Shown piece by piece: positions 7,793 to 23,411 of a stretch of 24,485 nt of DNA. The position numbers and the translations under genes are program-made. The notes under the pieces were generated by a model. That model was not told the origin of the DNA and made no database searches. It saw only the letters and a program-made list of their open reading frames with translations. This DNA is from a virus (lineage: Duplodnaviria > Caudoviricetes). Within the stretch, counting starts at the first letter, position 1, and each line of letters opens with the position of its first letter. Location: IMG/VR virus record IMGVR_UViG_3300030372_004203, positions 1 through 24,485 of that record. One strand, given 5' to 3'.

Positions 7793-7982
7793 TTTTATCC
7801 TTACACTTACAATTTTTAGGTGGATGGGCCATTTTTTCTAATAAATTAAGGCGCTTATCCATTTCTTTTACTTTATTGTCCAGTTCATTATCATCAAAAA
7901 CATACGACATTATTTTATCAAGCTTAAAATGTTTAACCATTTGATTTGCTACTGTATTTATAAGCATTTTAGGTATTATCAT
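7785..7982 (-). CDS. Hypothetical protein, 65 aa, short coiled coil with C-terminal CKC
   Basis: ORF track; overlaps neighbours at both ends, consistent with translational coupling. Confidence 0.7.
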   Translation of the reverse strand: MIIPKMLINTVANQMVKHFKLDKIMSYVFDDNELDNKVKEMDKRLNLLEKMAHPPKNCKCKDKNA

Positions 7983-8125
7983 TATATACTACCCCAAAGT
8001 TTTTTAAATACAAGAACTACAATAACTATAAATAAAACGCTAATAACATCTATTGCATGATTTCCACTATCACTTTCGACACTACCTATAGGTGTTTCTA
8101 TTTTAAATCGTTCAGTTTTATTCAT
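7982..8125 (-). CDS. Small membrane protein, 47 aa (not in ORF track)
   Basis: MNKTERFKIETPIGSVESDSGNHAIDVISVLFIVIVVLVFKKLWGSI*. It fills the gap exactly, ends in a TAATG overlap with the next gene, and has one hydrophobic helix followed by KK. Confidence 0.75.
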   Translation of the reverse strand: MNKTERFKIETPIGSVESDSGNHAIDVISVLFIVIVVLVFKKLWGSI

Positions 8126-9857: not shown

Positions 9858-11414
9858 TTATAATTCAAATTTCCATACACTAGTAGCAGTAGCATATTTA
9901 GCTGCTACGGCACTATCAAATTCTATTCTAATTCTATCTCCTGCTGAAAATGTATTATTAGCACTCCAAGTATAGGTAGCTGTTGTTTCATTTGCTATTG
10001 TTTGGTTTACAGCAGTTTGGTTTGTTCCATTAACTCTTAATGATATATCAGTAGAGCCTGCTGGTAATCCTACACCAGTTGCACACTGTACTACTATCTT
10101 TTCTAATTTTCCATCAAAAGGAACAATAAATAAAGTATCATCATTCCAAGCATCAGTTACAGCCGCAGTCTCTAATGAAGATGGGCCAAAAGGTATATAA
10201 TATGCTGATGCAGAATTAGCGTACCAAGAATGAATCTCTTGATGATAAAAGTGTGATTGACTAATAGTAAGAGTACTACCACTTGCTACCGTTGATAAAG
10301 TATCTCCTCCAGCAATAGTCATATCTGCATTTCCACTAGTAACTGTAGCTGTACTTGCATCATCTCCAACTAATCTAACTCTTGTTATAGTTCCAGCATT
10401 ATCTGTCCAACTAGAGTCATTATCAAATGCACTTAATCTAATTTCACTTAATAGTTTTCTTTTATGAGAACCATTATCCATTACTACTAATTCATCTTGA
10501 CTTCCATCAACCTCTTGTGTCATATCTGTTAATCCAGTAAGGTCCCAACTAAATGTAGTTCCAGATAATTGTAATCCAGTACCAGCAGTATATGTTGTAT
10601 TAGTATCTGGAGGAATAACCCAATCTCCATCTTCTCTTAAATATTTAGTAGTTGTTCCAGTACTTTCAGGACTTGGTACTAATCCACCATTGTCATTATC
10701 AAAATCTGCATAAGTAGTATTAGTATAATTATTAGCATGAACAGTTCCAGCGCCATTTACAGTTAAATCTACAGGTATAGTAGGTTTATTAAGTATTTGA
10801 GAATCACCCGAACTAGAATCCCAATCTGATTGAACGTTAACTTCTGCGCCAGTTGCTATTCCGTCTAACTTAGTCTTTAAAGCATCTGTTAGATTATTTG
10901 TATCACTTTCAGCAAATAAGGCTGTAGAAATTTCTGCTCCAGTTTGATCATCGGTAAAACCTGAATCATTAGTAAATGTAGATATAGGTAAACCAGTTAC
11001 AAAAGAATGAACTTGACCTCCAGTTGATATTGCATTACTACCACTAGTTGGAGCTACTGAATCTGCTATACTAAAAGTACTTAACCTTATTTCACTAATT
11101 AATTTTCTTTTAGCTACTGTTGGCATTGTAGAACTATTATCTATAATTAAAAGTTCATCTTCTGATGGATCAACTGCATTAGTTTTATCCATTAAATCAT
11201 CAAGACTTAAAGTAATAGTCGGAGTTGTTGTTCCGTTACTAACAGATAAACCAGTTCCTGCAGAAACTTCACTAACAGTTCCAGTGGCAGCAGAAGTAAC
11301 AGTTGCCCAACTTGTTGTAGTTCCATTAGTTTTTAAAACTAAATCAGCACTAGGGCTATTAGCTAAATCATCAGCTTTAGGTCTGTGTTGAAGTATTTTT
11401 TTCCAAGTAGCCAT
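9858..11414 (-). CDS. Tail fibre-like protein, 518 aa, with an internal duplicated module
   Basis: T/S/G/D-rich, with AGTGL turns and KLDGIATGAEVNVQSDW...QILNKPTIP motifs typical of fibre shafts; two copies of D-E-L-x-x-x-D-N...KRKL(I/L)SEIRLS(T/A)F; C-terminal beta-sandwich-like domain. Confidence 0.75.
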   Translation of the reverse strand: MATWKKILQHRPKADDLANSPSADLVLKTNGTTTSWATVTSAATGTVSEVSAGTGLSVSNGTTTPTITLSLDDLMDKTNAVDPSEDELLIIDNSSTMPTVAKRKLISEIRLSTFSIADSVAPTSGSNAISTGGQVHSFVTGLPISTFTNDSGFTDDQTGAEISTALFAESDTNNLTDALKTKLDGIATGAEVNVQSDWDSSSGDSQILNKPTIPVDLTVNGAGTVHANNYTNTTYADFDNDNGGLVPSPESTGTTTKYLREDGDWVIPPDTNTTYTAGTGLQLSGTTFSWDLTGLTDMTQEVDGSQDELVVMDNGSHKRKLLSEIRLSAFDNDSSWTDNAGTITRVRLVGDDASTATVTSGNADMTIAGGDTLSTVASGSTLTISQSHFYHQEIHSWYANSASAYYIPFGPSSLETAAVTDAWNDDTLFIVPFDGKLEKIVVQCATGVGLPAGSTDISLRVNGTNQTAVNQTIANETTATYTWSANNTFSAGDRIRIEFDSAVAAKYATATSVWKFEL

Positions 11415-14684: not shown

Positions 14685-15494
14685 CTATTCCCATTCTAAA
14701 TTTAATTTTTGTATAGACTCTTTTAAACTTTCTTCTAATATAGCTTTATTTTGAGTTAATAATGTAAATAACTCTGTATCTTCTTCTTGAGTAGCCATAT
14801 CAGATATTTTTAATTCTATAACTTTTAAAGCTATTCTTTTTATAACTATATCTTCAATATCTCTAGGTAAACTTTTAAATTCAGTCATTGTGTCCCAAGC
14901 TGAATCTGTATCAGTTTCTCCGCCTGTTTCCATTATAGTTTCTCTAGGGTATGCAAAAACAGTTATTGCAGAAGTTCCTTTAGGCATTATATTGGAATCA
15001 CCATATGGACCAGTACCCGCCATCCAACTGTTTGAAACATCAGGATACACATATATAGTTTGTTTTCCACCTACATTTTTAAATGTATATACTGGACTAA
15101 ATTTTGTAGCATAATGTATACTATTAACATCTTGAGCTTTGTGAACATTTTCAAATGCTATAGCCTTGCATGGCTTAGTAACATATCGTTCAGATTTTAT
15201 AGTAGTATTATCTGATTCTAATAAATGGTCAGCTTCAGTTCTTAAAACAAGTAAAACAAGTTCATCTTCTGCATCATAAGGTGGCACAACCGTTAATTGA
15301 CCAGAAATCATATTTTCTGGATCAATAGGCTGTTCTATTTGGGTTAATAAATATCTAGAAGGAACAATACCTGCTATTTCCCATAAAGCCTCATTAAATA
15401 ATTCTTCTGGTGCAGATATTTGATCTAAATAATCAGAATTGTCTTCCCCTAATGTTGATAAAACTCTTGCTTTTATTGTTGTGTTTGTTGCCAT
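14685..15494 (-). CDS. Head-tail adaptor/ring protein, 269 aa
   Basis: Directly after the MCP; helical N-terminus, SPVY...TIYVYP strands and LPRDIEDIVIKRIALK helical C-terminus. Confidence 0.6.
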   Translation of the reverse strand: MATNTTIKARVLSTLGEDNSDYLDQISAPEELFNEALWEIAGIVPSRYLLTQIEQPIDPENMISGQLTVVPPYDAEDELVLLVLRTEADHLLESDNTTIKSERYVTKPCKAIAFENVHKAQDVNSIHYATKFSPVYTFKNVGGKQTIYVYPDVSNSWMAGTGPYGDSNIMPKGTSAITVFAYPRETIMETGGETDTDSAWDTMTEFKSLPRDIEDIVIKRIALKVIELKISDMATQEEDTELFTLLTQNKAILEESLKESIQKLNLEWE

Positions 15495-15547: not shown

Positions 15548-17050
15548 TTAAGCTATAAAATCAATAGTAGCATGAGTTTCAGGTAACATTACCTCAAGCC
15601 CAGCTTCTGTGATTATCATATCTTTTCTACCATCTATATCATTTTCTTGAACATTAGTTTCAACGAATGTATCACGAGATATTCCGTTTCCTGCTAATGG
15701 TCTATATGATACGTTTGATAAGTCAATACATACAGCTTTATTTTCCATATCACCTCTGAATAATGGATGTGCTACGAAATTCATAGAACCCCAAGATGTA
15801 GAGATAGATGTAATATCAATTGGCATAAAGCTAGATGCTTTAACATCTATGTTTGCAGAGAAAACAGTCTTAAGGTCTGACCCACTAAGTGAGTTATCTA
15901 AGAAGTTCCCTGGACCCATTTTATGAAGAGCATTAATTACTTTTCTAGAAGTTAGACATAGTTTTTGACCACTATTTCCACCTTCCCAGTTCATAAAGTC
16001 ATCCATAACATCAACCATTCCATCATAACTAAATGGTTTTTGAACATCATAAGTTGAGTCTGCACCAGGTGTATCACCTGAGAAGTCAAACTGATAACGT
16101 TTTCCACCTTTAGCTTCTAAAAATGGAACGATACCCCATGAATTTCTGGTATCAGCATCAGTATACTTACCATAGCCAAACAAAAATGCATTTTCTAGAT
16201 CCATTTTATGAGATTTTAAGTGTTCTGCGTAAATACGTTTCCACTCATTTGCATAACCTCTGTATCTAGTTGCTTGCATTGAACCTGACATTAAAGGAAC
16301 TGAAGTTTTGAATATCTGCGTATAGAATTCTGTTGCAGATAGTTCATCTCTCCAACCTTCAGGAGCACCAGTTGCCTCACCCCATTGTGATCCAATCACT
16401 TGACCTTGTTTATCCCAAGCAGCAGTAGCGAAATCGTTACCTGTTGCACTGCCTGAAGATACTACAACCATTTTGTCAATGTGAACTGTACAATAACCAG
16501 CCTGCTTACCAGCAGCAGCTTTATTAGATGCTCCTCCTGCTTCTGCGCCTGTATATGTATAGTATGCTGGATCAGCTGTAAGTTTATAAGAAACGCCATC
16601 TAGTCTTAAAATTTGACCAGCAGTTAAATAAAGAGGAGCGTATCCTACGAAATCTGCTGTATCAGGTTTTACTGATGATTTTGTTTGCTGTCCTGTATTA
16701 TCGTAATCAGTCCAAATTACGAAGTGAGTCATATCTGTTCCACTTGGATCAGCAATTGCTGTAATTGCTGCTCCATCACTTCCTGAAGGACCTGTTAATT
16801 TATGTGCGCTAACGCTAAAATTACGTCTTTGCCATTGGTTACGATATTCCAATGGTTTCCACACTGTTTCGTCTATAGGCTTTTTCCCAAGCTTAGACAA
16901 ATACGAAAAGAAAATTGATGTTTCTGGAGCTAATTCTGCAACCTTATCACCAATTCCAAACGTTCTTCGTATATTGTCGACACTTACTGCACCACCAAAA
17001 GCACCCGAAGGTGTAGTAGTTAGGAGTTCGCCGCCACTATAATCTGCCAT
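15548..17050 (-). CDS. Major capsid protein (HK97 fold, SU10/DUF5309-like), 500 aa
   Basis: Follows portal and scaffold; motifs P-E-T-S-x-F-F-x-Y-L-S-K, YTQIFKT, HKMDLENAFLFG and DGRKDMIITEAGLEV..PETH; strong SD AAGGAGG; downstream hairpin. Confidence 0.9.
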   Translation of the reverse strand: MADYSGGELLTTTPSGAFGGAVSVDNIRRTFGIGDKVAELAPETSIFFSYLSKLGKKPIDETVWKPLEYRNQWQRRNFSVSAHKLTGPSGSDGAAITAIADPSGTDMTHFVIWTDYDNTGQQTKSSVKPDTADFVGYAPLYLTAGQILRLDGVSYKLTADPAYYTYTGAEAGGASNKAAAGKQAGYCTVHIDKMVVVSSGSATGNDFATAAWDKQGQVIGSQWGEATGAPEGWRDELSATEFYTQIFKTSVPLMSGSMQATRYRGYANEWKRIYAEHLKSHKMDLENAFLFGYGKYTDADTRNSWGIVPFLEAKGGKRYQFDFSGDTPGADSTYDVQKPFSYDGMVDVMDDFMNWEGGNSGQKLCLTSRKVINALHKMGPGNFLDNSLSGSDLKTVFSANIDVKASSFMPIDITSISTSWGSMNFVAHPLFRGDMENKAVCIDLSNVSYRPLAGNGISRDTFVETNVQENDIDGRKDMIITEAGLEVMLPETHATIDFIA

Positions 17051-17060
17051 TTATTCCTCC

Positions 17061-18056
17061 TTAAAGAATATTATGTTTGTTATCGTCGGTTATTAGTGCG
17101 TCCATAAAAGATTTAGAACCTGTATTAGCAGTTGCAGGGTTAGAAGCAGGTTGAACGCCCATAGGTCTTGGTACTGATTGTGCTCTTTGTGTTTGCGCAA
17201 ATGTTTGACTAGGTTGGGCCATAGCAGGTGCTGATTGAACACTTCCTTGTCCCCTCTTATAATTATAGTATCCAACTAAATCATCCATATTTATAGATTT
17301 TGGATCATTCATTGTTGCTATAAAATCATCTAAGTTTTCACCTAAATCATATTTGTTTTTAACAAAAGACCTTACATTAGCCATTTCCTGTTGTTGTCTT
17401 TGTGCTTGTTTTCTCTGCAATTCTATTTTTTCAAGTCCACTTATCTTTTTATTATAAGACTCGCGCATAGTAGCTATTTCATATTGAGAAGCAAGTTGAT
17501 TATACATTTGCATATCATCTCGCCATTTGTCAACACTATCTAAATACTGTGCACTTTCACTTCTAGGATCACTAAACGCTTCTTCTCTTGAGAAACCCGC
17601 GGGTTGCTGAGGTTTTTCAGGTGGAGGAGGAAACTCTTCCTGTTGTTGCTCACTTGGTGGTGCAGATTGCGCTGGTGGTTTTGCACCTGGCGTAATATTT
17701 TGCACGGCCTCTGGATTGTTTCGGAGATAATCTACCATAGGCATATACTCCTTAACAGTGTCTAGTTGATTCTTCATTTGGGCAGCTTGTGACTGCCAGT
17801 ATTGATACCTAACTTCATCATTTGTTTTGTCAGGGGCTACTTCATTTTTAGAAAAATCTTGTTGCGTTGCCTGTGGCGGTGCAACTTGTTCTTCTGGCAC
17901 GGTATTCCTCGCTGGAGGAGACGTGTTATTTTCTTGAGTAGGTAATCCTAACTCCTGTTCAAATGTAAAATCGGCACTTTCGTTCTCTGTTCGGGTTTCC
18001 TCAATTTGTTTTTCAAATTCAGGAGCCTCATTAACGTTTTGTTCATTAGCTTCCAT
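17061..18056 (-). CDS. Capsid scaffolding protein, 331 aa
   Basis: Between portal and MCP; acidic and P/Q-rich low-complexity segments alternate with coiled coils (RYQYWQSQAAQMKNQL). Confidence 0.75.
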   Translation of the reverse strand: MEANEQNVNEAPEFEKQIEETRTENESADFTFEQELGLPTQENNTSPPARNTVPEEQVAPPQATQQDFSKNEVAPDKTNDEVRYQYWQSQAAQMKNQLDTVKEYMPMVDYLRNNPEAVQNITPGAKPPAQSAPPSEQQQEEFPPPPEKPQQPAGFSREEAFSDPRSESAQYLDSVDKWRDDMQMYNQLASQYEIATMRESYNKKISGLEKIELQRKQAQRQQQEMANVRSFVKNKYDLGENLDDFIATMNDPKSINMDDLVGYYNYKRGQGSVQSAPAMAQPSQTFAQTQRAQSVPRPMGVQPASNPATANTGSKSFMDALITDDNKHNIL

Positions 18057-18058
18057 TG

Positions 18059-20416
18059 CTATTTTTTCCTCTCTTTAGACTGCTTCTTTGATGCTGGAGA
18101 AGGTGAGTCTGCTTTTTCTTTTGCTGCATCAACGACTTCCTTAGAAAGAATTGATAAGTTATCATCTAAACGTTTTTCAAATAGAGTTCCAGCCATTTTA
18201 GCCTTATTCTTAGTTTGATCAAGTTCTGTTTTAAACTTCTCTACTTCGACTTTTTGTTTCAGGTGCACATTTTCTCTAGTTAATGTCTGCATATCACCAC
18301 CTAACTTCTTCAATTGTGACGTTAACTGTTTCACTTGTGACTGTAACTTGCCAATAGTATCTGTTCTTTCAAGAACGCCTTCCATATCGAAGACCTCAGT
18401 TTTCTTAAGGACTTCTTGTTTATCTATGATTCCCTTACCATAAGCATCCATGTAGAATTCGAGTTCCGCATATCTATTAGACGGAAGTGTCGAACCTGAA
18501 ACGTATACAACATCATATTTGCCTACAGTAATATCATTAGTAATTTTTATCTCATTTGTTTTATCATCATATAATTTTTTATTTATAGCATATTCTGTTT
18601 GAGAATTGTTTGGATTAACAACTCTAAATATTTTTTCATTTTGATATAATTCTTGCATCATTTGAATTGCTACTTTTGCTACCCTCTGTAATCCACCTTC
18701 TATATCAGCTAATTTAGACTTTATTTTTCTTTGACCAAATTCATCTAGTGATATAGTAGCTTTATAAGTTTGTGGAGCAGCCTGGGAATTACCCATCATC
18801 ATTTCATAAAGTCCAAGCTGGTGATCTATGTCGTTTTTAGCGGTCTGTTCATTATTATACAACTCATTAGGAAGAGGTGCTGGACTTGCGACAACTGGCT
18901 GCCCCATATCAAAGTCAACTTCTATACCAACCCCTGGTTGAGCCCATTTTTGCTCAAACTCCGCCATATCTACACTACCAGAAGGAACTAAGACCTTCAT
19001 ATTGGTTGATGTAGTAGCATGGGCTATTATAAGTGATCTAGTTTTATTTATATAGTCTTGTAGACCTTTAACCATACGAACATCACTCATTGGATAAGGG
19101 GTTCTAGTATGAAGGTTGGTTAAGGGAACAATAGGATAATTACTAGTAGGTAATATCCTTGAGTATATATGTGAATCTCCTAAGATTACACATTGTTTGA
19201 CTTTTGTTAAAGATATAGGAACAGCCTGAATCATTCCATCTGAAATTAAATGCGCTTTAGTTTTCATAACAACATTTGGTATATTGCCTACATTACCAGC
19301 CTGAGCCATAGCATTTTCTTTAGCTGATGCAATTTGATTATCGATACCTTCTCTTAATTTACCAAGCTCTAACTCCATTCTATCTGGAAGTATATTACCT
19401 AATTGAACTTCTTCTAACATTTGCTGTTCTTGCTCTTGATATTGTACTTCTAATTCTTCACCCATAATATGAATATCTTTTTGAAGCATTTTAAGGTTTT
19501 CTTTTAATATTTTGTCTTTTATTTGACTTTGCTTCTCTTGAGTTTTCTTTATATTATCTGGGCCTTCAATTATTTTATTTTGTAGAATACCAACTTCAGT
19601 TTGAATATATTGTTGAAACTCTTCTTCTGTAAAACGAAACTCTTTTTTATTGTAAGTTTCGAATACTCTATAAGCAGTTTCTTGAACTTTATAATATCTT
19701 TCATAACCTCTTACATATTCATCATCCTCAAGAGTTTCTATTTCACCTGGAAAAACAATTCCAGAATTATCTGTATTGCCAGTTATAATCTGATCACTCT
19801 CATAAGAGCCTTCAGCAGCATCTATTGCTTGTTCATATTGGGGATATAAAGCTTTTGCTTGTGCTTTTGTGAAGTTACGTGATATTATTATATTTTCTGC
19901 ATCATCAAAGAAAGGGTCTCTTGAATTAGGATCGACATAAACATCTAATGGGTCTATATCTTTTATAACTACTTCACCTTTTCCGTCATCTGCTTGTGGA
20001 TTTTGATATACCATAATATATCCCAATCCAGTAACATAGTAATCATCTATAGCTTGTCTTATGATTGTTCTTCCATCAGATATATCATACATATAACTGA
20101 GTAACTGATTTAAAACATTAGCGACTTTAGTGTCACTATCTTCTCTTGGGGAAACTTTAAATGAGGGTCTATTAGCAGTAAGCATAGCTTTTGCTGTTTC
20201 AACTGCTGGATGAATACGATTAACTACAATAGGAGCTTGTCCTCTTGCTTTTAGCGTTTCTTCTTGTTCTTTAGTCCATTGCCTACCTAGTCTGTATTCC
20301 TGGTCTTCTCTAGCTTGAACTTCCCAGACATCTCTTTTTCTTTTGTAGAGATCGAATAATTCTTTGGTTTCGTCGGCAATTGGCTTTGATTCTTGTTGAG
20401 ATTCATAATCAGCCAA
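18059..20416 (-). CDS. Portal protein (P22-like), 785 aa, TTG start
   Basis: G-x-QW...L..RGQAPIVVNRI, DPLDVYVDP, YPIVP, LQDYINK, GKYDV and a C-terminal barrel-like coiled coil; SD AGGGGG; follows terL. Confidence 0.9.
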   Translation of the reverse strand: MADYESQQESKPIADETKELFDLYKRKRDVWEVQAREDQEYRLGRQWTKEQEETLKARGQAPIVVNRIHPAVETAKAMLTANRPSFKVSPREDSDTKVANVLNQLLSYMYDISDGRTIIRQAIDDYYVTGLGYIMVYQNPQADDGKGEVVIKDIDPLDVYVDPNSRDPFFDDAENIIISRNFTKAQAKALYPQYEQAIDAAEGSYESDQIITGNTDNSGIVFPGEIETLEDDEYVRGYERYYKVQETAYRVFETYNKKEFRFTEEEFQQYIQTEVGILQNKIIEGPDNIKKTQEKQSQIKDKILKENLKMLQKDIHIMGEELEVQYQEQEQQMLEEVQLGNILPDRMELELGKLREGIDNQIASAKENAMAQAGNVGNIPNVVMKTKAHLISDGMIQAVPISLTKVKQCVILGDSHIYSRILPTSNYPIVPLTNLHTRTPYPMSDVRMVKGLQDYINKTRSLIIAHATTSTNMKVLVPSGSVDMAEFEQKWAQPGVGIEVDFDMGQPVVASPAPLPNELYNNEQTAKNDIDHQLGLYEMMMGNSQAAPQTYKATISLDEFGQRKIKSKLADIEGGLQRVAKVAIQMMQELYQNEKIFRVVNPNNSQTEYAINKKLYDDKTNEIKITNDITVGKYDVVYVSGSTLPSNRYAELEFYMDAYGKGIIDKQEVLKKTEVFDMEGVLERTDTIGKLQSQVKQLTSQLKKLGGDMQTLTRENVHLKQKVEVEKFKTELDQTKNKAKMAGTLFEKRLDDNLSILSKEVVDAAKEKADSPSPASKKQSKERKK

Positions 20417-20463
20417 GTCTATACCCCCTATTTAGCCTGTAATACGGCACTTTAATATATAAC

Positions 20464-21957
20464 TTATAATGTCATCCAATCAAGAACTTTCTTTAATTTA
20501 CTATCTTTTTTTGTTCCATCAAGTGTTTTTAGCCTTGCTGGCCTAGATCCTTCAAGAGATGTCCATACTGCATCCATAACATCATCGTGTTTACCTTTTG
20601 GATAAGATAAAAACTCAGCTTGAGCGTCTGTATCTTGACTTCTAAAGTAAAATTCTCCTTTAGCAAACATAGGAACTAAAGATAATAACCTTTCACTCTT
20701 ACGAGTTCTAGGTTTAACACCTTTTTCAAGTCCTGGTATATATAAGTTCTCTTCTAACATTCGTTTTTTAACTGCAGCTCTTAAAGCTTCCTGATAAGCA
20801 ACAGTCTCTATTTTCATTTTTTTATGTCTAAACTTTTTAAATTTTTCTATTATTATATCTGGCTGTTCGGCTGGTGATACATGTTTTCTATATAAATCAA
20901 GTAAATACTTATTTCCTTCATGATCTATACCTATAGTTACAAGAACAAAAAAGTCTGCTCTTTGTGATAAAGAAGAGGCGGGGTCTACTCCTCCATAGAC
21001 CTCTACTGGGATGACTTCTTCGCCATCACCCGTCTCTTTTACCAAACAAGGATGTCCTTCTCTTCTTTCGAAGTCGTACTGGTGAAGTTTTATCCATTCT
21101 GGCTTAAATGGAGCCTCATCAGGAGATTGTGCTATATTCATATATTCCTGATAAAACCCGTTTATGTTGCCAACCGAACTATATTCTTCTTTAATTTGTG
21201 AAATTCTTGATTCTGGGAATCTTTCTGGCCATATTGGTGTACCATCATCATTTATTATAGAATACCATAATGTTTTCCATGCTGAGGAATCTTTAGCCCA
21301 ATACAAGAAACAATCCTCCGATATAACTGTTCCTATCATTATTATTCTTCCTTCATCAGATAATGAGGGTATAACAGCCTCTGTCATCCACTTTCTGTTC
21401 TTAGCACGTGCTTCCATAGTAAAAGCATTTAATTCTGATTCAAAATCATCTACTATAATAAGTGTAGGACGTGTATCACCTTCAATAAAACCCCTAACCC
21501 TTTGTCCAGTACCTACAGCTACTATTCTAACTCCATTTGCAGTAACAACATCTGTTGCTGTCCATCTTCTAGCTGTATTAGGCCCCATATCTCCAAATAG
21601 AGCCTTGAATCTATCGCTATGAGTTAAATGATACTTAATACGAGATAAGAAGTTAATAGACTGCGCCTGTGATTCGGATATAATGACGATAAATTCTTCT
21701 TCATCGTCTCTTTTAAACGCTATACGGTGCATTGGAAGGAGAAGTGAGGTAACTGTGGATTTAGCCGTACCACGAGGCGCTGCTATTAATACTCTTTTTG
21801 TATTTCTATTTTTTAAATTTCTATAAATTTCGTGATGAAATGGTGGAGTAGCTTTTCTAAGAGCAGTAGGAAAGCAAGTACGACCAAATAATGCAATATT
21901 GTTATATAACTTTTTAAGAGCTTGTTTCTTCTCGTATAAGGCTTCAAAATCACTCAT
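20464..21957 (-). CDS. terL: Terminase large subunit, 497 aa
   Basis: Walker A APRGTAKST, Walker B IIVDDFE, coupling motif IGT, nuclease motifs GVDPA, IET and HDDVMDA. Confidence 0.95.
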   Translation of the reverse strand: MSDFEALYEKKQALKKLYNNIALFGRTCFPTALRKATPPFHHEIYRNLKNRNTKRVLIAAPRGTAKSTVTSLLLPMHRIAFKRDDEEEFIVIISESQAQSINFLSRIKYHLTHSDRFKALFGDMGPNTARRWTATDVVTANGVRIVAVGTGQRVRGFIEGDTRPTLIIVDDFESELNAFTMEARAKNRKWMTEAVIPSLSDEGRIIMIGTVISEDCFLYWAKDSSAWKTLWYSIINDDGTPIWPERFPESRISQIKEEYSSVGNINGFYQEYMNIAQSPDEAPFKPEWIKLHQYDFERREGHPCLVKETGDGEEVIPVEVYGGVDPASSLSQRADFFVLVTIGIDHEGNKYLLDLYRKHVSPAEQPDIIIEKFKKFRHKKMKIETVAYQEALRAAVKKRMLEENLYIPGLEKGVKPRTRKSERLLSLVPMFAKGEFYFRSQDTDAQAEFLSYPKGKHDDVMDAVWTSLEGSRPARLKTLDGTKKDSKLKKVLDWMTL

Positions 21958-22720
21958 CAGTGGACGTTTTTGCTTCTATTGTTACTTGTTTGCCTTTTAA
22001 TTGAGCTTCTTCTTCGTTTATTTCATCTAAAAGCTTTCTTGTTTGAGTAGCTTCTAATTGTGTAGTAGTTTTAGTGACTGTTTTATCCTTCATACCTAAC
22101 ATATCTTGTATATTCTCTACAACTCTTAAGAAATTAGTTACATCATTCTTAAGTTTAGCCATTTCTAGTCCATCAGATAATAAATCAATAGTTTTTGATC
22201 TATTATATCCCTTTTCGGCTAATACTTCCTTTAATTCATCTTTTACCATACTTTTAAACTCCTGTGTTCTCATCCATCTCTTAGCAGTTCTTATTTTACT
22301 CTTTGATGGGTTATCATATACTTGTTCTATTGCTAGATCCATATTAAAACACGTAGCATACACCATAGCTAAGTTTTTCCATTCTTGTGTCCCTCGTCGA
22401 ACTTCAAGCTGAGGCTTCCCAGTAAGCGTATGATTAGATATTCTCCCATCCGCTTTAAGTTTTTGAGTAGGATACTTAGGAGAATGAAAGGCATACCCAA
22501 AAGGCATACGCACGTAATAAGAACTAACGCCATTATCTCCGTCATATCTCTTCTTTTGGATGACTTTGCCAACATAATTATCATCCGTGAGTGCATACTG
22601 GCCTTTTTCGGCTTCTTTCCAATATACATACTTTATGGACTCCTTGTCAGCTTCTGCTTTTGTGTAGATTTGATAGGTTTGTTTACCTAAATCTCTGTGT
22701 CTAATGCTTATTTCATACAT
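21950..22720 (-). CDS. Probable terminase small subunit, 256 aa
   Basis: Immediately upstream of and overlapping terL; basic N-terminal domain, HTH-like centre, helical oligomerisation-like region and extended C-terminus. Assigned by synteny. Confidence 0.55.
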   Translation of the reverse strand: MYEISIRHRDLGKQTYQIYTKAEADKESIKYVYWKEAEKGQYALTDDNYVGKVIQKKRYDGDNGVSSYYVRMPFGYAFHSPKYPTQKLKADGRISNHTLTGKPQLEVRRGTQEWKNLAMVYATCFNMDLAIEQVYDNPSKSKIRTAKRWMRTQEFKSMVKDELKEVLAEKGYNRSKTIDLLSDGLEMAKLKNDVTNFLRVVENIQDMLGMKDKTVTKTTTQLEATQTRKLLDEINEEEAQLKGKQVTIEAKTSTDE

Positions 22721-22812
22721 TAATACTTTTTCTTAGGTTTAGCCTTACTTTTGTTCTTTTTCTTTGGCGGTCTACCTCTTTTAGAGCCGTAAGTTCCTTT
22801 ACCTTGTGGCAT
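22720..22812 (-). CDS. 30-aa highly basic AT-hook peptide (not in ORF track)
   Basis: MPQGKGTYGSKRGRPPKKKNKSKAKPKKKY*. SD AAGGAG at the end of the lysin gene; TAATG overlap with the downstream gene; KRGRPPK matches the AT-hook core. Confidence 0.8.
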   Translation of the reverse strand: MPQGKGTYGSKRGRPPKKKNKSKAKPKKKY

Positions 22813-22814
22813 AA

Positions 22815-23207
22815 TTACTCCTTTATTTCAAAATGTGGAAAATCATCGAATCTATTGTCGTGTACATACCAATCCTGATCCCAATCTCCTCCCCATCTTA
22901 AGTTTATCTCCATAGACTTAGCAATGCCAAGCACAAAACCAGCGAAAAGATGAAACCGTTCCCTATCATTCCAATCAATAGGATAAGGGACCACATCAAC
23001 AGCCCTACTTGGATTAGCGTTATGACGACCATTGGGGTATCTAACTTTAGTTTTACCTTCTTTAAACAGTTTATCTTGTCTTTCACCACTTCTATGTCCT
23101 TCTATTACACTGCAATCTACGTGTTTAATTACTTCATTAAAGACTTTTTGTAGTCTTTCATCACATGTTTTTAAGTTATTTCTTGATCTACTACCGAATT
23201 TAGGCAT
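22815..23207 (-). CDS. Endolysin, peptidase M15 family (L-Ala-D-Glu peptidase-like), 130 aa
   Basis: EGHRS..RQ..LF..GKT, H-x6-D zinc site (RHNANPSRAVD region), RWGGDW and DFPHFE; catalytic domain only. Confidence 0.9.
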   Translation of the reverse strand: MPKFGSRSRNNLKTCDERLQKVFNEVIKHVDCSVIEGHRSGERQDKLFKEGKTKVRYPNGRHNANPSRAVDVVPYPIDWNDRERFHLFAGFVLGIAKSMEINLRWGGDWDQDWYVHDNRFDDFPHFEIKE

Positions 23208-23311
23208 TATTCATCCTCATCAGGGTAAGTTCTTACATTATCGACTGATACTTCACCATTCCAAGGAGCTCCTATATCAGTAGTCTTAAGTGTATCGTAT
23301 TTACTAGTCAT
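23207..23311 (-). CDS. 34-aa micro-protein similar to the MCP N-terminal arm (not in ORF track)
   Basis: MTSKYDTLKTTDIGAPWNGEVSVDNVRTYPDEDE*. GGAG SD upstream of the ATG; the stop overlaps the lysin start (TAATG). Confidence 0.75.
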   Translation of the reverse strand: MTSKYDTLKTTDIGAPWNGEVSVDNVRTYPDEDE

Positions 23312-23411
23312 TACTACTCCAGAAATATATTTAAATAAAGTTATAGATAGCGTATCTAAAGTCTATATGTAGACCTATAGAGTTAAGGAACGCCGTAATC
23401 TATAGTATACT

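What the first reader, a model, noticed from the sequence alone, without database searches (positions are those of the whole stretch)
23207..23311. Unannotated 34-aa micro-protein that resembles the N-terminal arm of the phage's own major capsid protein
Seen in sequence: the first ORF of the late operon (GGAG SD, TAATG-coupled to the endolysin) encodes L-K-T-T-D-I-G-A-P-W-N-G-E-V-S-V-D-N-V-R-(gap)-T-Y. This aligns by eye with MCP residues 10-31 (about 16958-17023), L-T-T-T-P-S-G-A-(gap)-F-G-G-A-V-S-V-D-N-I-R-R-T-F. The alignment has 13 identities, W/F, V/I and Y/F substitutions and two single gaps, with an exact VSVDN core. Codons differ at identical residues (Ser TCA vs AGT, Asp GAT vs GAC, Arg AGA vs CGA), which points to protein-level constraint rather than a recent DNA duplication. 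The peptide ends in an acidic PDEDE tail. Established knowledge: HK97-fold N-arms mediate scaffold, portal and inter-capsomer contacts, and some defence systems (CapRel-SJ46; Lit via the T4 Gol peptide) are triggered by capsid proteins. Inference: a free N-arm mimic could be a decoy for a capsid-sensing defence or capsid-hijacking satellite, an assembly-timing inhibitor, or a minor virion component that supplies a missing N-arm at the portal vertex.
Basis: partly seen in the sequence, partly recalled or inferred. Interest (0 to 1): 0.85.

Follow-up and report, generated by a model that had tools for sequence, protein, structure and literature searches.

The report
Free-standing copy of capsid protein's arm
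A large group of uncultured marine phages keeps a tiny conserved gene that copies only the first ~30 residues (the N-terminal arm) of their own capsid protein, lineage by lineage, and its product likely plugs arm-binding sites left empty where the DNA-entry portal replaces a capsid pentamer.

Summary
The 34-codon ORF (23207-23311, minus strand) is a real gene: present in 22 of 22 close relatives with enough upstream DNA, dN/dS about 0.19, and part of an unnamed family of 277 clusters. The single pairwise match is modest (P 0.00085 against the MCP, 0.012 against the proteome), but family profiles align it with the MCP N-arm over 28 columns (probability 97.9). Two more distant capsid clades carry their own clade-matched arm copies; a fourth has none (0 of 11 genomes). 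A double change (DN[IV]R to DSLR) occurs in both genes on one branch. The acidic tail is an exception (4 of 40); the tail is normally Lys/Arg-rich. In the distant clades the gene is coupled to the next gene (38 of 40), which is the head-tail adaptor-like gene in 36 of 40. Best reading (0.4, inferred): a low-copy head component filling N-arm sites vacant at the portal vertex. Rivals: assembly regulator, capsid-wide DNA tether, defence decoy. Binding and translation were not tested directly. Closest precedent: Milano LP2, an arm-only paralogue of a decoration protein; I found no described arm-only paralogue of an MCP.

The parts
23207..23311 (-). Micro-gene, 34 aa, arm-only paralogue of the major capsid protein; first gene of the leftward late block
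23222..23299 (-). N-arm-like core (residues 5-30), aligning with MCP residues ~4-31
23210..23224 (-). Acidic tail (PDEDE); Lys/Arg-rich in most orthologues; kept through synonymous changes in L008
23317..23320 (-). Shine-Dalgarno-like GGAG, 5 nt before the ATG
   Evidence: similar purine-rich sites in most orthologues
23325..23332 (-). AAATATAT motif just upstream of the SD, seen by eye in most clade A orthologues; candidate late-promoter element (inferred, not scored)
   Evidence: the sigma-70 scan lists no site here (4 sites in the region, 4.2 expected)
22815..23207 (-). Endolysin gene, overlapping the micro-gene's stop (TAATG)
   Evidence: phrog_465 E 1.3e-41
16958..17050 (-). MCP N-arm, residues 1-31: the segment that is copied; R28 and R29 invariant in 79 MCPs; unconfident in the monomer model
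15548..17050 (-). Major capsid protein, HK97 fold, SU10_MCP family; nearest solved structure 9IN6 (Vibrio phage VP1)
14685..15494 (-). Head-tail adaptor-like gene (269 aa); its orthologue directly follows the micro-gene in 36 of 40 clade B/C loci

Best explanation
The ORF encodes a conserved arm-only paralogue of the phage's major capsid protein, and its product is likely a low-copy head component that binds in trans in the N-arm sites left empty around the portal vertex, where no capsid pentamer supplies an arm. Shown: it is a gene under purifying selection, homologous to MCP residues ~1-31, matched to the MCP clade that carries it, and in two clades coupled to the adaptor-like gene. Inferred: because arm and copy change together they answer to the same binding surface; in a finished HK97 shell the MCP fills its own arm sites, so spare sites are expected mainly beside the portal; the charged tail (basic in most, acidic in the window's small lineage) would be a secondary contact to DNA or neck proteins and is not the conserved function.
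For: Gene reality: 22 of 22 distinct clade A terS alleles with >=2,500 nt upstream carry it, 29 of 30 with >=1,500 nt; pooled dN/dS 0.19 over 5 pairs, Fisher P 1.6e-9. Homology: profile-profile with tails removed, clade A micro vs clade A arm probability 97.9, E 6e-13, 28 columns; B vs B 93.5; C vs C 97.7; cross-clade C vs A or B arms <=5.6. Profiles built from MCP arms alone pull clade-matched micro-genes out of 9,706 small ORFs; reversed and shuffled sets give 0-2 hits at E<1. 66 of 66 micro-proteins score best against their own clade's arms (partly circular for B and C, whose seeds came from arm profiles). Within clade A cognate pairs beat permuted pairs (24 pairs, P 5e-5); DSLR in both genes 4 of 4 against 0 of 20, one starred terL clade. 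Context: in clades B and C 38 of 40 micro-genes overlap or abut the next gene, and that gene is the orthologue of window 14685-15494 in 36 of 40 (34 of 35 B, 2 of 5 C), 1.9-6 kb after the MCP start; 7 of 27 members of that family match SU10_adaptor, best E 5.8e-7, and the SU10 adaptor contacts portal and capsid (PMC9509320 section 10). The arm is unconfident in the monomer model (residues 1-43 pLDDT <50) and the peptide has no secondary structure alone, as expected of a segment that folds on a partner. Precedents: Milano LP2, P74-26 PVP, crAss001 gp57.
Against: Dispensable across the group: no second arm copy in 11 of 11 clade D records, 13 of 14 clade C records, and 6 of 19 clade B records, and no arm-like segment fused to another protein in the fetched loci (best non-family iE 0.044). 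In clade A, the window's own, the gene sits before the endolysin, about 6-7.5 kb from the MCP and not by the adaptor. Fine-scale tracking is weak: clade B P 0.083 (36 pairs), clade C P 0.93 (5 pairs), clade A without the DSLR clade P 0.038, rows not independent; window and L008 share a 91% identical peptide with MCPs only 68% identical. Five clade B variants lack the D-x-R-R half. The window peptide lacks one of the two invariant MCP arginines. The SU10 passages read mention no such peptide. Position between decoration and adaptor genes fits any capsid accessory protein, not only a vertex one.
Confidence: 0.4

Rival explanations
1. Transient assembly regulator: the free arm would compete with MCP arms for the scaffold or for the neighbouring E-loop/P-domain site, damping off-pathway polymerisation or timing scaffold release and expansion, and would leave before the virion is finished.
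For: In HK97-fold proheads the N-arm binds scaffold and its refolding triggers maturation (PMC11922011 passages). First position in the late block of clade A would supply it before the MCP. Dispensability and loose fine-scale tracking suit a tuning factor. All homology evidence fits equally.
Against: Coupling to the adaptor-like gene downstream of the MCP in clades B and C is the place of a structural protein; a conserved charged tail (145 of 147 short relatives net >=+4) has no evident use for a competitor.
Confidence: 0.22
2. Capsid-wide lining or cementing peptide: it would bind a quasi-equivalent arm-like groove on many subunits and use the basic tail to tether packaged DNA to the shell, like P68 gp21 or (recalled) microvirus J.
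For: Bipartite anatomy, arm plus Lys/Arg tail, in 36 of 40 clade A, 37 of 37 clade B and 6 of 6 clade C sequences. P68 gp21 is a 55-residue, mostly unstructured inner capsid protein linked to ordered DNA (PMC6795507 section 7). Gene follows the decoration-like genes in B and C.
Against: Each MCP brings its own arm, so a second shell-wide set of arm sites has to be assumed. The window's lineage keeps an acidic tail under purifying selection. P68 gp21 is not described as an MCP paralogue in the section read.
Confidence: 0.15
3. Decoy: a soluble arm copy would soak up a host capsid-sensing defence protein or a satellite's capsid-hijacking protein that recognises the N-arm.
For: Patchy presence in clades B and C, probable independent origin in clade C (no profile match to A or B micro-proteins), hypervariable MCP arm starts, first place in the late block in clade A. 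Capsid-triggered defences such as CapRel-SJ46 and Lit are recalled, not tested.
Against: Fixed in clade A (22 of 22) and strongly conserved in B, unlike most arms-race genes; embedded in the structural block after the MCP in B and C; a ligand copy could as well trigger a sensor; one search for decoy + capsid + CapRel gave a single editorial listing. Host unknown, so no defence system could be linked.
Confidence: 0.13
4. Shared processing or targeting tag: the common segment would be a protease or chaperone motif, as with the Prp motif shared by phage 80alpha capsid and scaffold proteins, serving to load a charged peptide into the head.
For: Precedent for shared N-terminal motifs on head proteins (PMC5744158 passages); dibasic core.
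Against: No other window protein, scaffold included, carries the motif, nor do other proteins in relatives' loci; the match spans about 28 columns from residue 1, longer than a tag; no prohead protease among the 18 window proteins scanned.
Confidence: 0.06
5. Chance likeness or a decaying duplication without function.
For: Single-pair significance is modest (P 0.012 against the proteome); the clade A profile did not reach any MCP at E<=0.001 in 1.84 billion proteins; no RNA contig covers the ORF (uninformative).
Against: dN/dS 0.19, conservation, three clade-matched versions, reciprocal profile hits.
Confidence: 0.01

Closest known systems
Agrobacterium phage Milano linking protein 2 (LP2, gp128) (PMC10491603, passages)
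   Same: [quoted passage not shown]
   Different: LP2 copies a decoration protein's arm, not the MCP's; it covers the whole shell and is disulfide-linked; the window peptide has no cysteine and ends in a charged tail.
Portal-vertex-specific proteins: P74-26 PVP (PMC12407722, passages) and crAss001 gp57 (PMC10172136, passages)
   Same: Extra proteins that make up for contacts lost where the portal replaces a pentamer; the PVP N-arm joins an MCP P-domain sheet and its Lys2 touches DNA. crAss001 MCP is among the top fold matches of this MCP.
   Different: Both have folded bodies and are not described as MCP-arm paralogues in the passages read; location at the vertex is shown for them and only inferred here.
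Staphylococcus phage P68 inner capsid protein gp21 (PMC6795507, section 7)
   Same: Small, largely unstructured protein bound to an HK97 shell and linked to DNA order.
   Different: Icosahedrally arranged; no stated similarity to the MCP arm.
Phage 80alpha CP/SP shared Prp-cleavage motif (PMC5744158, passages)
   Same: A short N-terminal sequence shared between the capsid protein and another phage protein.
   Different: There the motif sits on long proteins and on host L27; here it is the whole gene, and the scaffold lacks it.

Membership tests
Arm-only paralogue virion proteins (Milano LP2 kind) | Separate small gene whose product matches the N-terminal arm of a capsid-associated protein of the same phage | tested here: met
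   (the parent here is the MCP)
Arm-only paralogue virion proteins (Milano LP2 kind) | Present in the virion at sites equivalent to the parent's arm | not testable with these tools
   no cultured close relative; needs proteomics or cryo-EM
Portal-vertex-specific proteins (PVP, gp57) | Located only at the portal vertex in 5-10 copies | not testable with these tools
   gene context only
Portal-vertex-specific proteins (PVP, gp57) | Folded globular body | tested here: not met
   34 aa, model without helix or strand, pTM 0.13; it may work like them without being a member
SU10_MCP / HK97-fold major capsid proteins | P-domain, A-domain and E-loop | tested here: not met
   only the arm is present; no Pfam or PHROG match for the peptide or for 38 family members in PHROGs
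Prp-type shared cleavage motif | Same motif on scaffold or other head proteins | tested here: not met
Phage anti-defence decoys or sponges | Binds and blocks a host defence protein | not testable with these tools
   host unknown; capsid-bearing contigs in genome bins span unrelated taxa

The most novel reading that the evidence does not exclude
These phages have, at least twice, spun off their own capsid N-arm as a separate gene that is kept in step with the capsid and acts outside the finished shell, as a self-mimic decoy for a host sensor or a satellite protein that reads the N-arm: a class of capsid-PAMP decoys.
Probability: 0.13. Interest if true: 0.88.

Novelty: new variant of a known kind. 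Interest (0 to 1): 0.66.

Why it matters
It is a clean case of a virus keeping a separately encoded copy of a disordered interaction arm of its own main structural protein and holding the two in step across capsid lineages only 26-45% identical. If it plugs the portal vertex, it shows a simple evolutionary route (duplicate the arm) to repair the missing-pentamer contacts, and predicts small unassigned densities in podophage vertex maps. If it is a regulator or decoy, it is a ready-made probe of N-arm partners. Either way it names a family of hundreds of unnamed 32-52 aa marine phage proteins and gives a testable site.

Tried and rejected
RNA evidence: one metatranscriptome among 21 runs held a small share of the region; its contigs touch the endolysin and upstream DNA but not the ORF: uninformative. 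A DNA contig covers the ORF with no differences but may be the source sample. ESM Atlas look-alikes of the peptide (score 0.90, 153 shared features, FAS1_DH on 13-23% of members) rejected as noise. Cultured phages: two weak MCP matches (25-27%), no match for the window peptide or a clade B peptide. PDB by sequence: nothing for the MCP alone, 9IN6 and 7Z45 with the profile, nothing for the adaptor-like family. Recent duplication or gene conversion: not supported by codon sharing, though old conversion cannot be excluded. Link between the acidic tail and the Lys-rich 30-aa ORF: none (1 of 4 acidic, 5 of 36 basic). Fused arm in other proteins of clades lacking the gene: none found in fetched loci. 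Whole-library profile search did not reach MCPs: 28 of 30 hits are micro-proteins, one a repeat artefact, one (P0028, 1,559 aa, no scoring stretch) not viewed. Literature: ten searches found no description of a separately encoded MCP N-arm; the library lacks most subscription journals, and I did not see the VP1 (9IN6) paper or any supplements, where small extra capsid chains might be reported.

Full report
Observation. The window is a 24.5-kb fragment (47% complete by CheckV) of a marine podovirus-like phage with a leftward late block: micro-ORF, endolysin, a Lys-rich 30-aa ORF, terS-like gene, terL, P22-like portal, scaffold-like gene, MCP, adaptor-like genes (the terS and scaffold labels are inferred from position). 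The pair alone scores 48 (BLOSUM62), P=0.00085 against the MCP and P=0.012 against 22 window proteins: suggestive, not decisive.

It is a real gene. tblastn and profile searches over loci fetched with MCP, terS and endolysin found it 0.48-2.1 kb upstream of terS in the window's clade (A): 22 of 22 distinct terS alleles with at least 2,500 nt upstream and 29 of 30 with at least 1,500 nt (the miss is L466); 40 distinct sequences. Pooled dN/dS over 5 pairs is 0.19 (Fisher P 1.6e-9). A profile search of 1.84 billion cluster representatives gave 30 hits, 28 of them 32-52 aa family members; a combined A+B profile gave 277 clusters among 778 candidates, and the 120 listed carry no Pfam domain and no functional name. 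Direct evidence of expression was not obtained.

It is homologous to the MCP N-arm. After the family itself, the best hits of a 10-seed profile among 64,644 six-frame segments are MCP N-termini (iE about 1e-6). A 20-member profile without the window's peptide and L008 ranks the window's MCP arm second of 853 segments. Profile-profile comparison gives probability 86.7 against a 79-MCP alignment and 97.9 over 28 columns against clade A arms. The match begins at residue 1 and stops at MCP F31. The MCP has the HK97 fold (Foldseek 9IN6 E 3e-17, crAss001 7QOF 1.5e-8; VIA Z 17.8, rmsd 6.1, 344 aligned); residues 1-43 are unconfident in the monomer, and R28/R29 are invariant. Against this, the whole-library search did not reach any MCP at E<=0.001, as expected for a 30-bit match.

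It tracks the capsid lineage. 342 MCP starts fell into four large clades, B, C and D being 40-45, 26-30 and 32-35% identical to the window's MCP. Profiles built from MCP arms alone recovered, from 9,706 small ORFs, clade-matched micro-genes for A, B and C and none for D; reversed and shuffled sets gave 0-2 hits at E<1. Iteration gave 37 B and 6 C full-length sequences. All 66 scored best against their own clade's arms (circular in part for B and C). The reverse also holds: the C micro profile hits the MCP arm in 12 of 14 C records and in none of 19 others. A and B micro-proteins share an IG-x-PW-x-G-like segment (probability about 90) and probably descend from one gene; C matches neither and is confined to close relatives of L141, so it likely arose separately. 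Within A, cognate pairs beat permuted pairs (24 pairs, P 5e-5), mostly through one terL clade (95/89 support) in which both genes read DSLR (4 of 4, against 0 of 20): one event, with different codons in the two genes. Without it P=0.038; B gives 0.083 and C 0.93. So tracking is clear at deep splits and loose at fine scale. Identical residues share a codon in 57 of 124 cases, near codon-usage expectation.

Distribution in near-complete records: clade A 4 of 5 (the fifth record starts inside terS); clade B 9 of 19 clear, 2 divergent (G021 E 2e-4; G024 E 0.15, weak), 2 half-arm variants, 6 none; clade C 1 of 14; clade D 0 of 11. The gene is accessory for the group, fixed in clade A.

Anatomy and context. 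The usual form is arm plus Lys/Arg tail: net charge +4 or more in 36 of 40 A sequences and 145 of 147 short database relatives; +3 to +13 in B and C. The window, L008, L426 and L450 end in acidic tails. In B and C the gene lies 1.9-6 kb after the MCP start, behind a variable set of decoration-like genes (label inferred), and abuts the next gene in 38 of 40 loci; that gene is the orthologue of window 14685-15494 in 36 of 40, an SU10_adaptor-like family (7 of 27 members, best E 5.8e-7, not the window's own member; Atlas score 0.97, family on 36% of the cluster). No other protein carries the motif.

Mechanism. Shown: gene, homology, clade tracking, context. Inferred: two sequences that change together answer to one binding surface. 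In HK97-fold heads the N-arm binds scaffold in the prohead and then pairs with a neighbour's E-loop and builds capsomer junctions (PMC11922011, passages); at the portal vertex the hexons must make up for contacts with the absent penton (PMC12407722, passages). A free arm has spare sites there, and the adaptor coupling points to the neck region. I put this at 0.40, a transient assembly regulator at 0.22, a shell-wide DNA tether at 0.15, a decoy at 0.13, a processing tag at 0.06. The patchy presence, the position before the endolysin in clade A, the acidic tail of the window's own lineage and five half-arm variants all count against a simple essential structural role.

Comparison. Milano LP2 is the nearest kind (38 residues, copy of a decoration protein's N-terminal strand; PMC10491603, passages); PVP and crAss001 gp57 (PMC10172136, passages) are vertex-specific substitutes with folded bodies; P68 gp21 is a small inner lining protein (PMC6795507, passages and section 7). 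For SU10 I read passages and section 10, for 80alpha passages; PMC13728456 only as a listing. CapRel, Lit and microvirus J are recalled. Ten searches found no separately encoded MCP arm. Four earlier AI notes describe capsid-fragment mini-genes in other phages; they are unchecked leads suggesting the pattern recurs, not support.

Verdict. A real, conserved, undescribed micro-protein family that copies its own capsid's N-arm; function inferred. New variant of a known kind; interest 0.66.

Noticed in passing
L144 (~9890-10000), L213:100-165, L175:2196-2285, L227, L038: Clade B half-arm variants: a Lys run at the N-terminus, then only the first half of the arm-like segment, ending before D-x-R-R; they lie 6-8 kb upstream of the MCP, in L144 abutting the endolysin, the clade A position.
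   Followed up: partly
L233:11387-11485 and L485:~7970-8040: The L233 micro-protein shares a 7-residue run before the RR core with the MCP arm of another clade B phage (L485), with most synonymous sites different; not with its own MCP.
   Followed up: partly
window 23325-23332 (-): AAATATAT-like motif shortly before the SD in most clade A orthologues; possible late-promoter element.
   Followed up: no
window 22720-22812 (-): Lys-rich 30-aa ORF between endolysin and terS; related ORFs in 6 of 40 clade A loci and many unrelated contigs, including RNA-library contigs.
   Followed up: partly
window 15548-22720 against L008 and L001: Mosaic head module: L008 has terS/terL/portal 94-96% identical but MCP 68%; L001 has MCP 82% with scaffold 60%.
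   Followed up: no
L412:6202 (G021) and L410 (G024): Divergent clade B micro-genes with Asp directly before RR, as in their own MCP arms; a second possible co-change.
   Followed up: partly
L485-L493: Related MCP contigs sit in genome bins of unrelated taxa (marine archaea, Bacteroidota, Saccharibacteria, Dehalococcoidia, Roseobacter), probably mis-binned; L485 also carries a clade B micro-gene; host remains unknown.
   Followed up: partly
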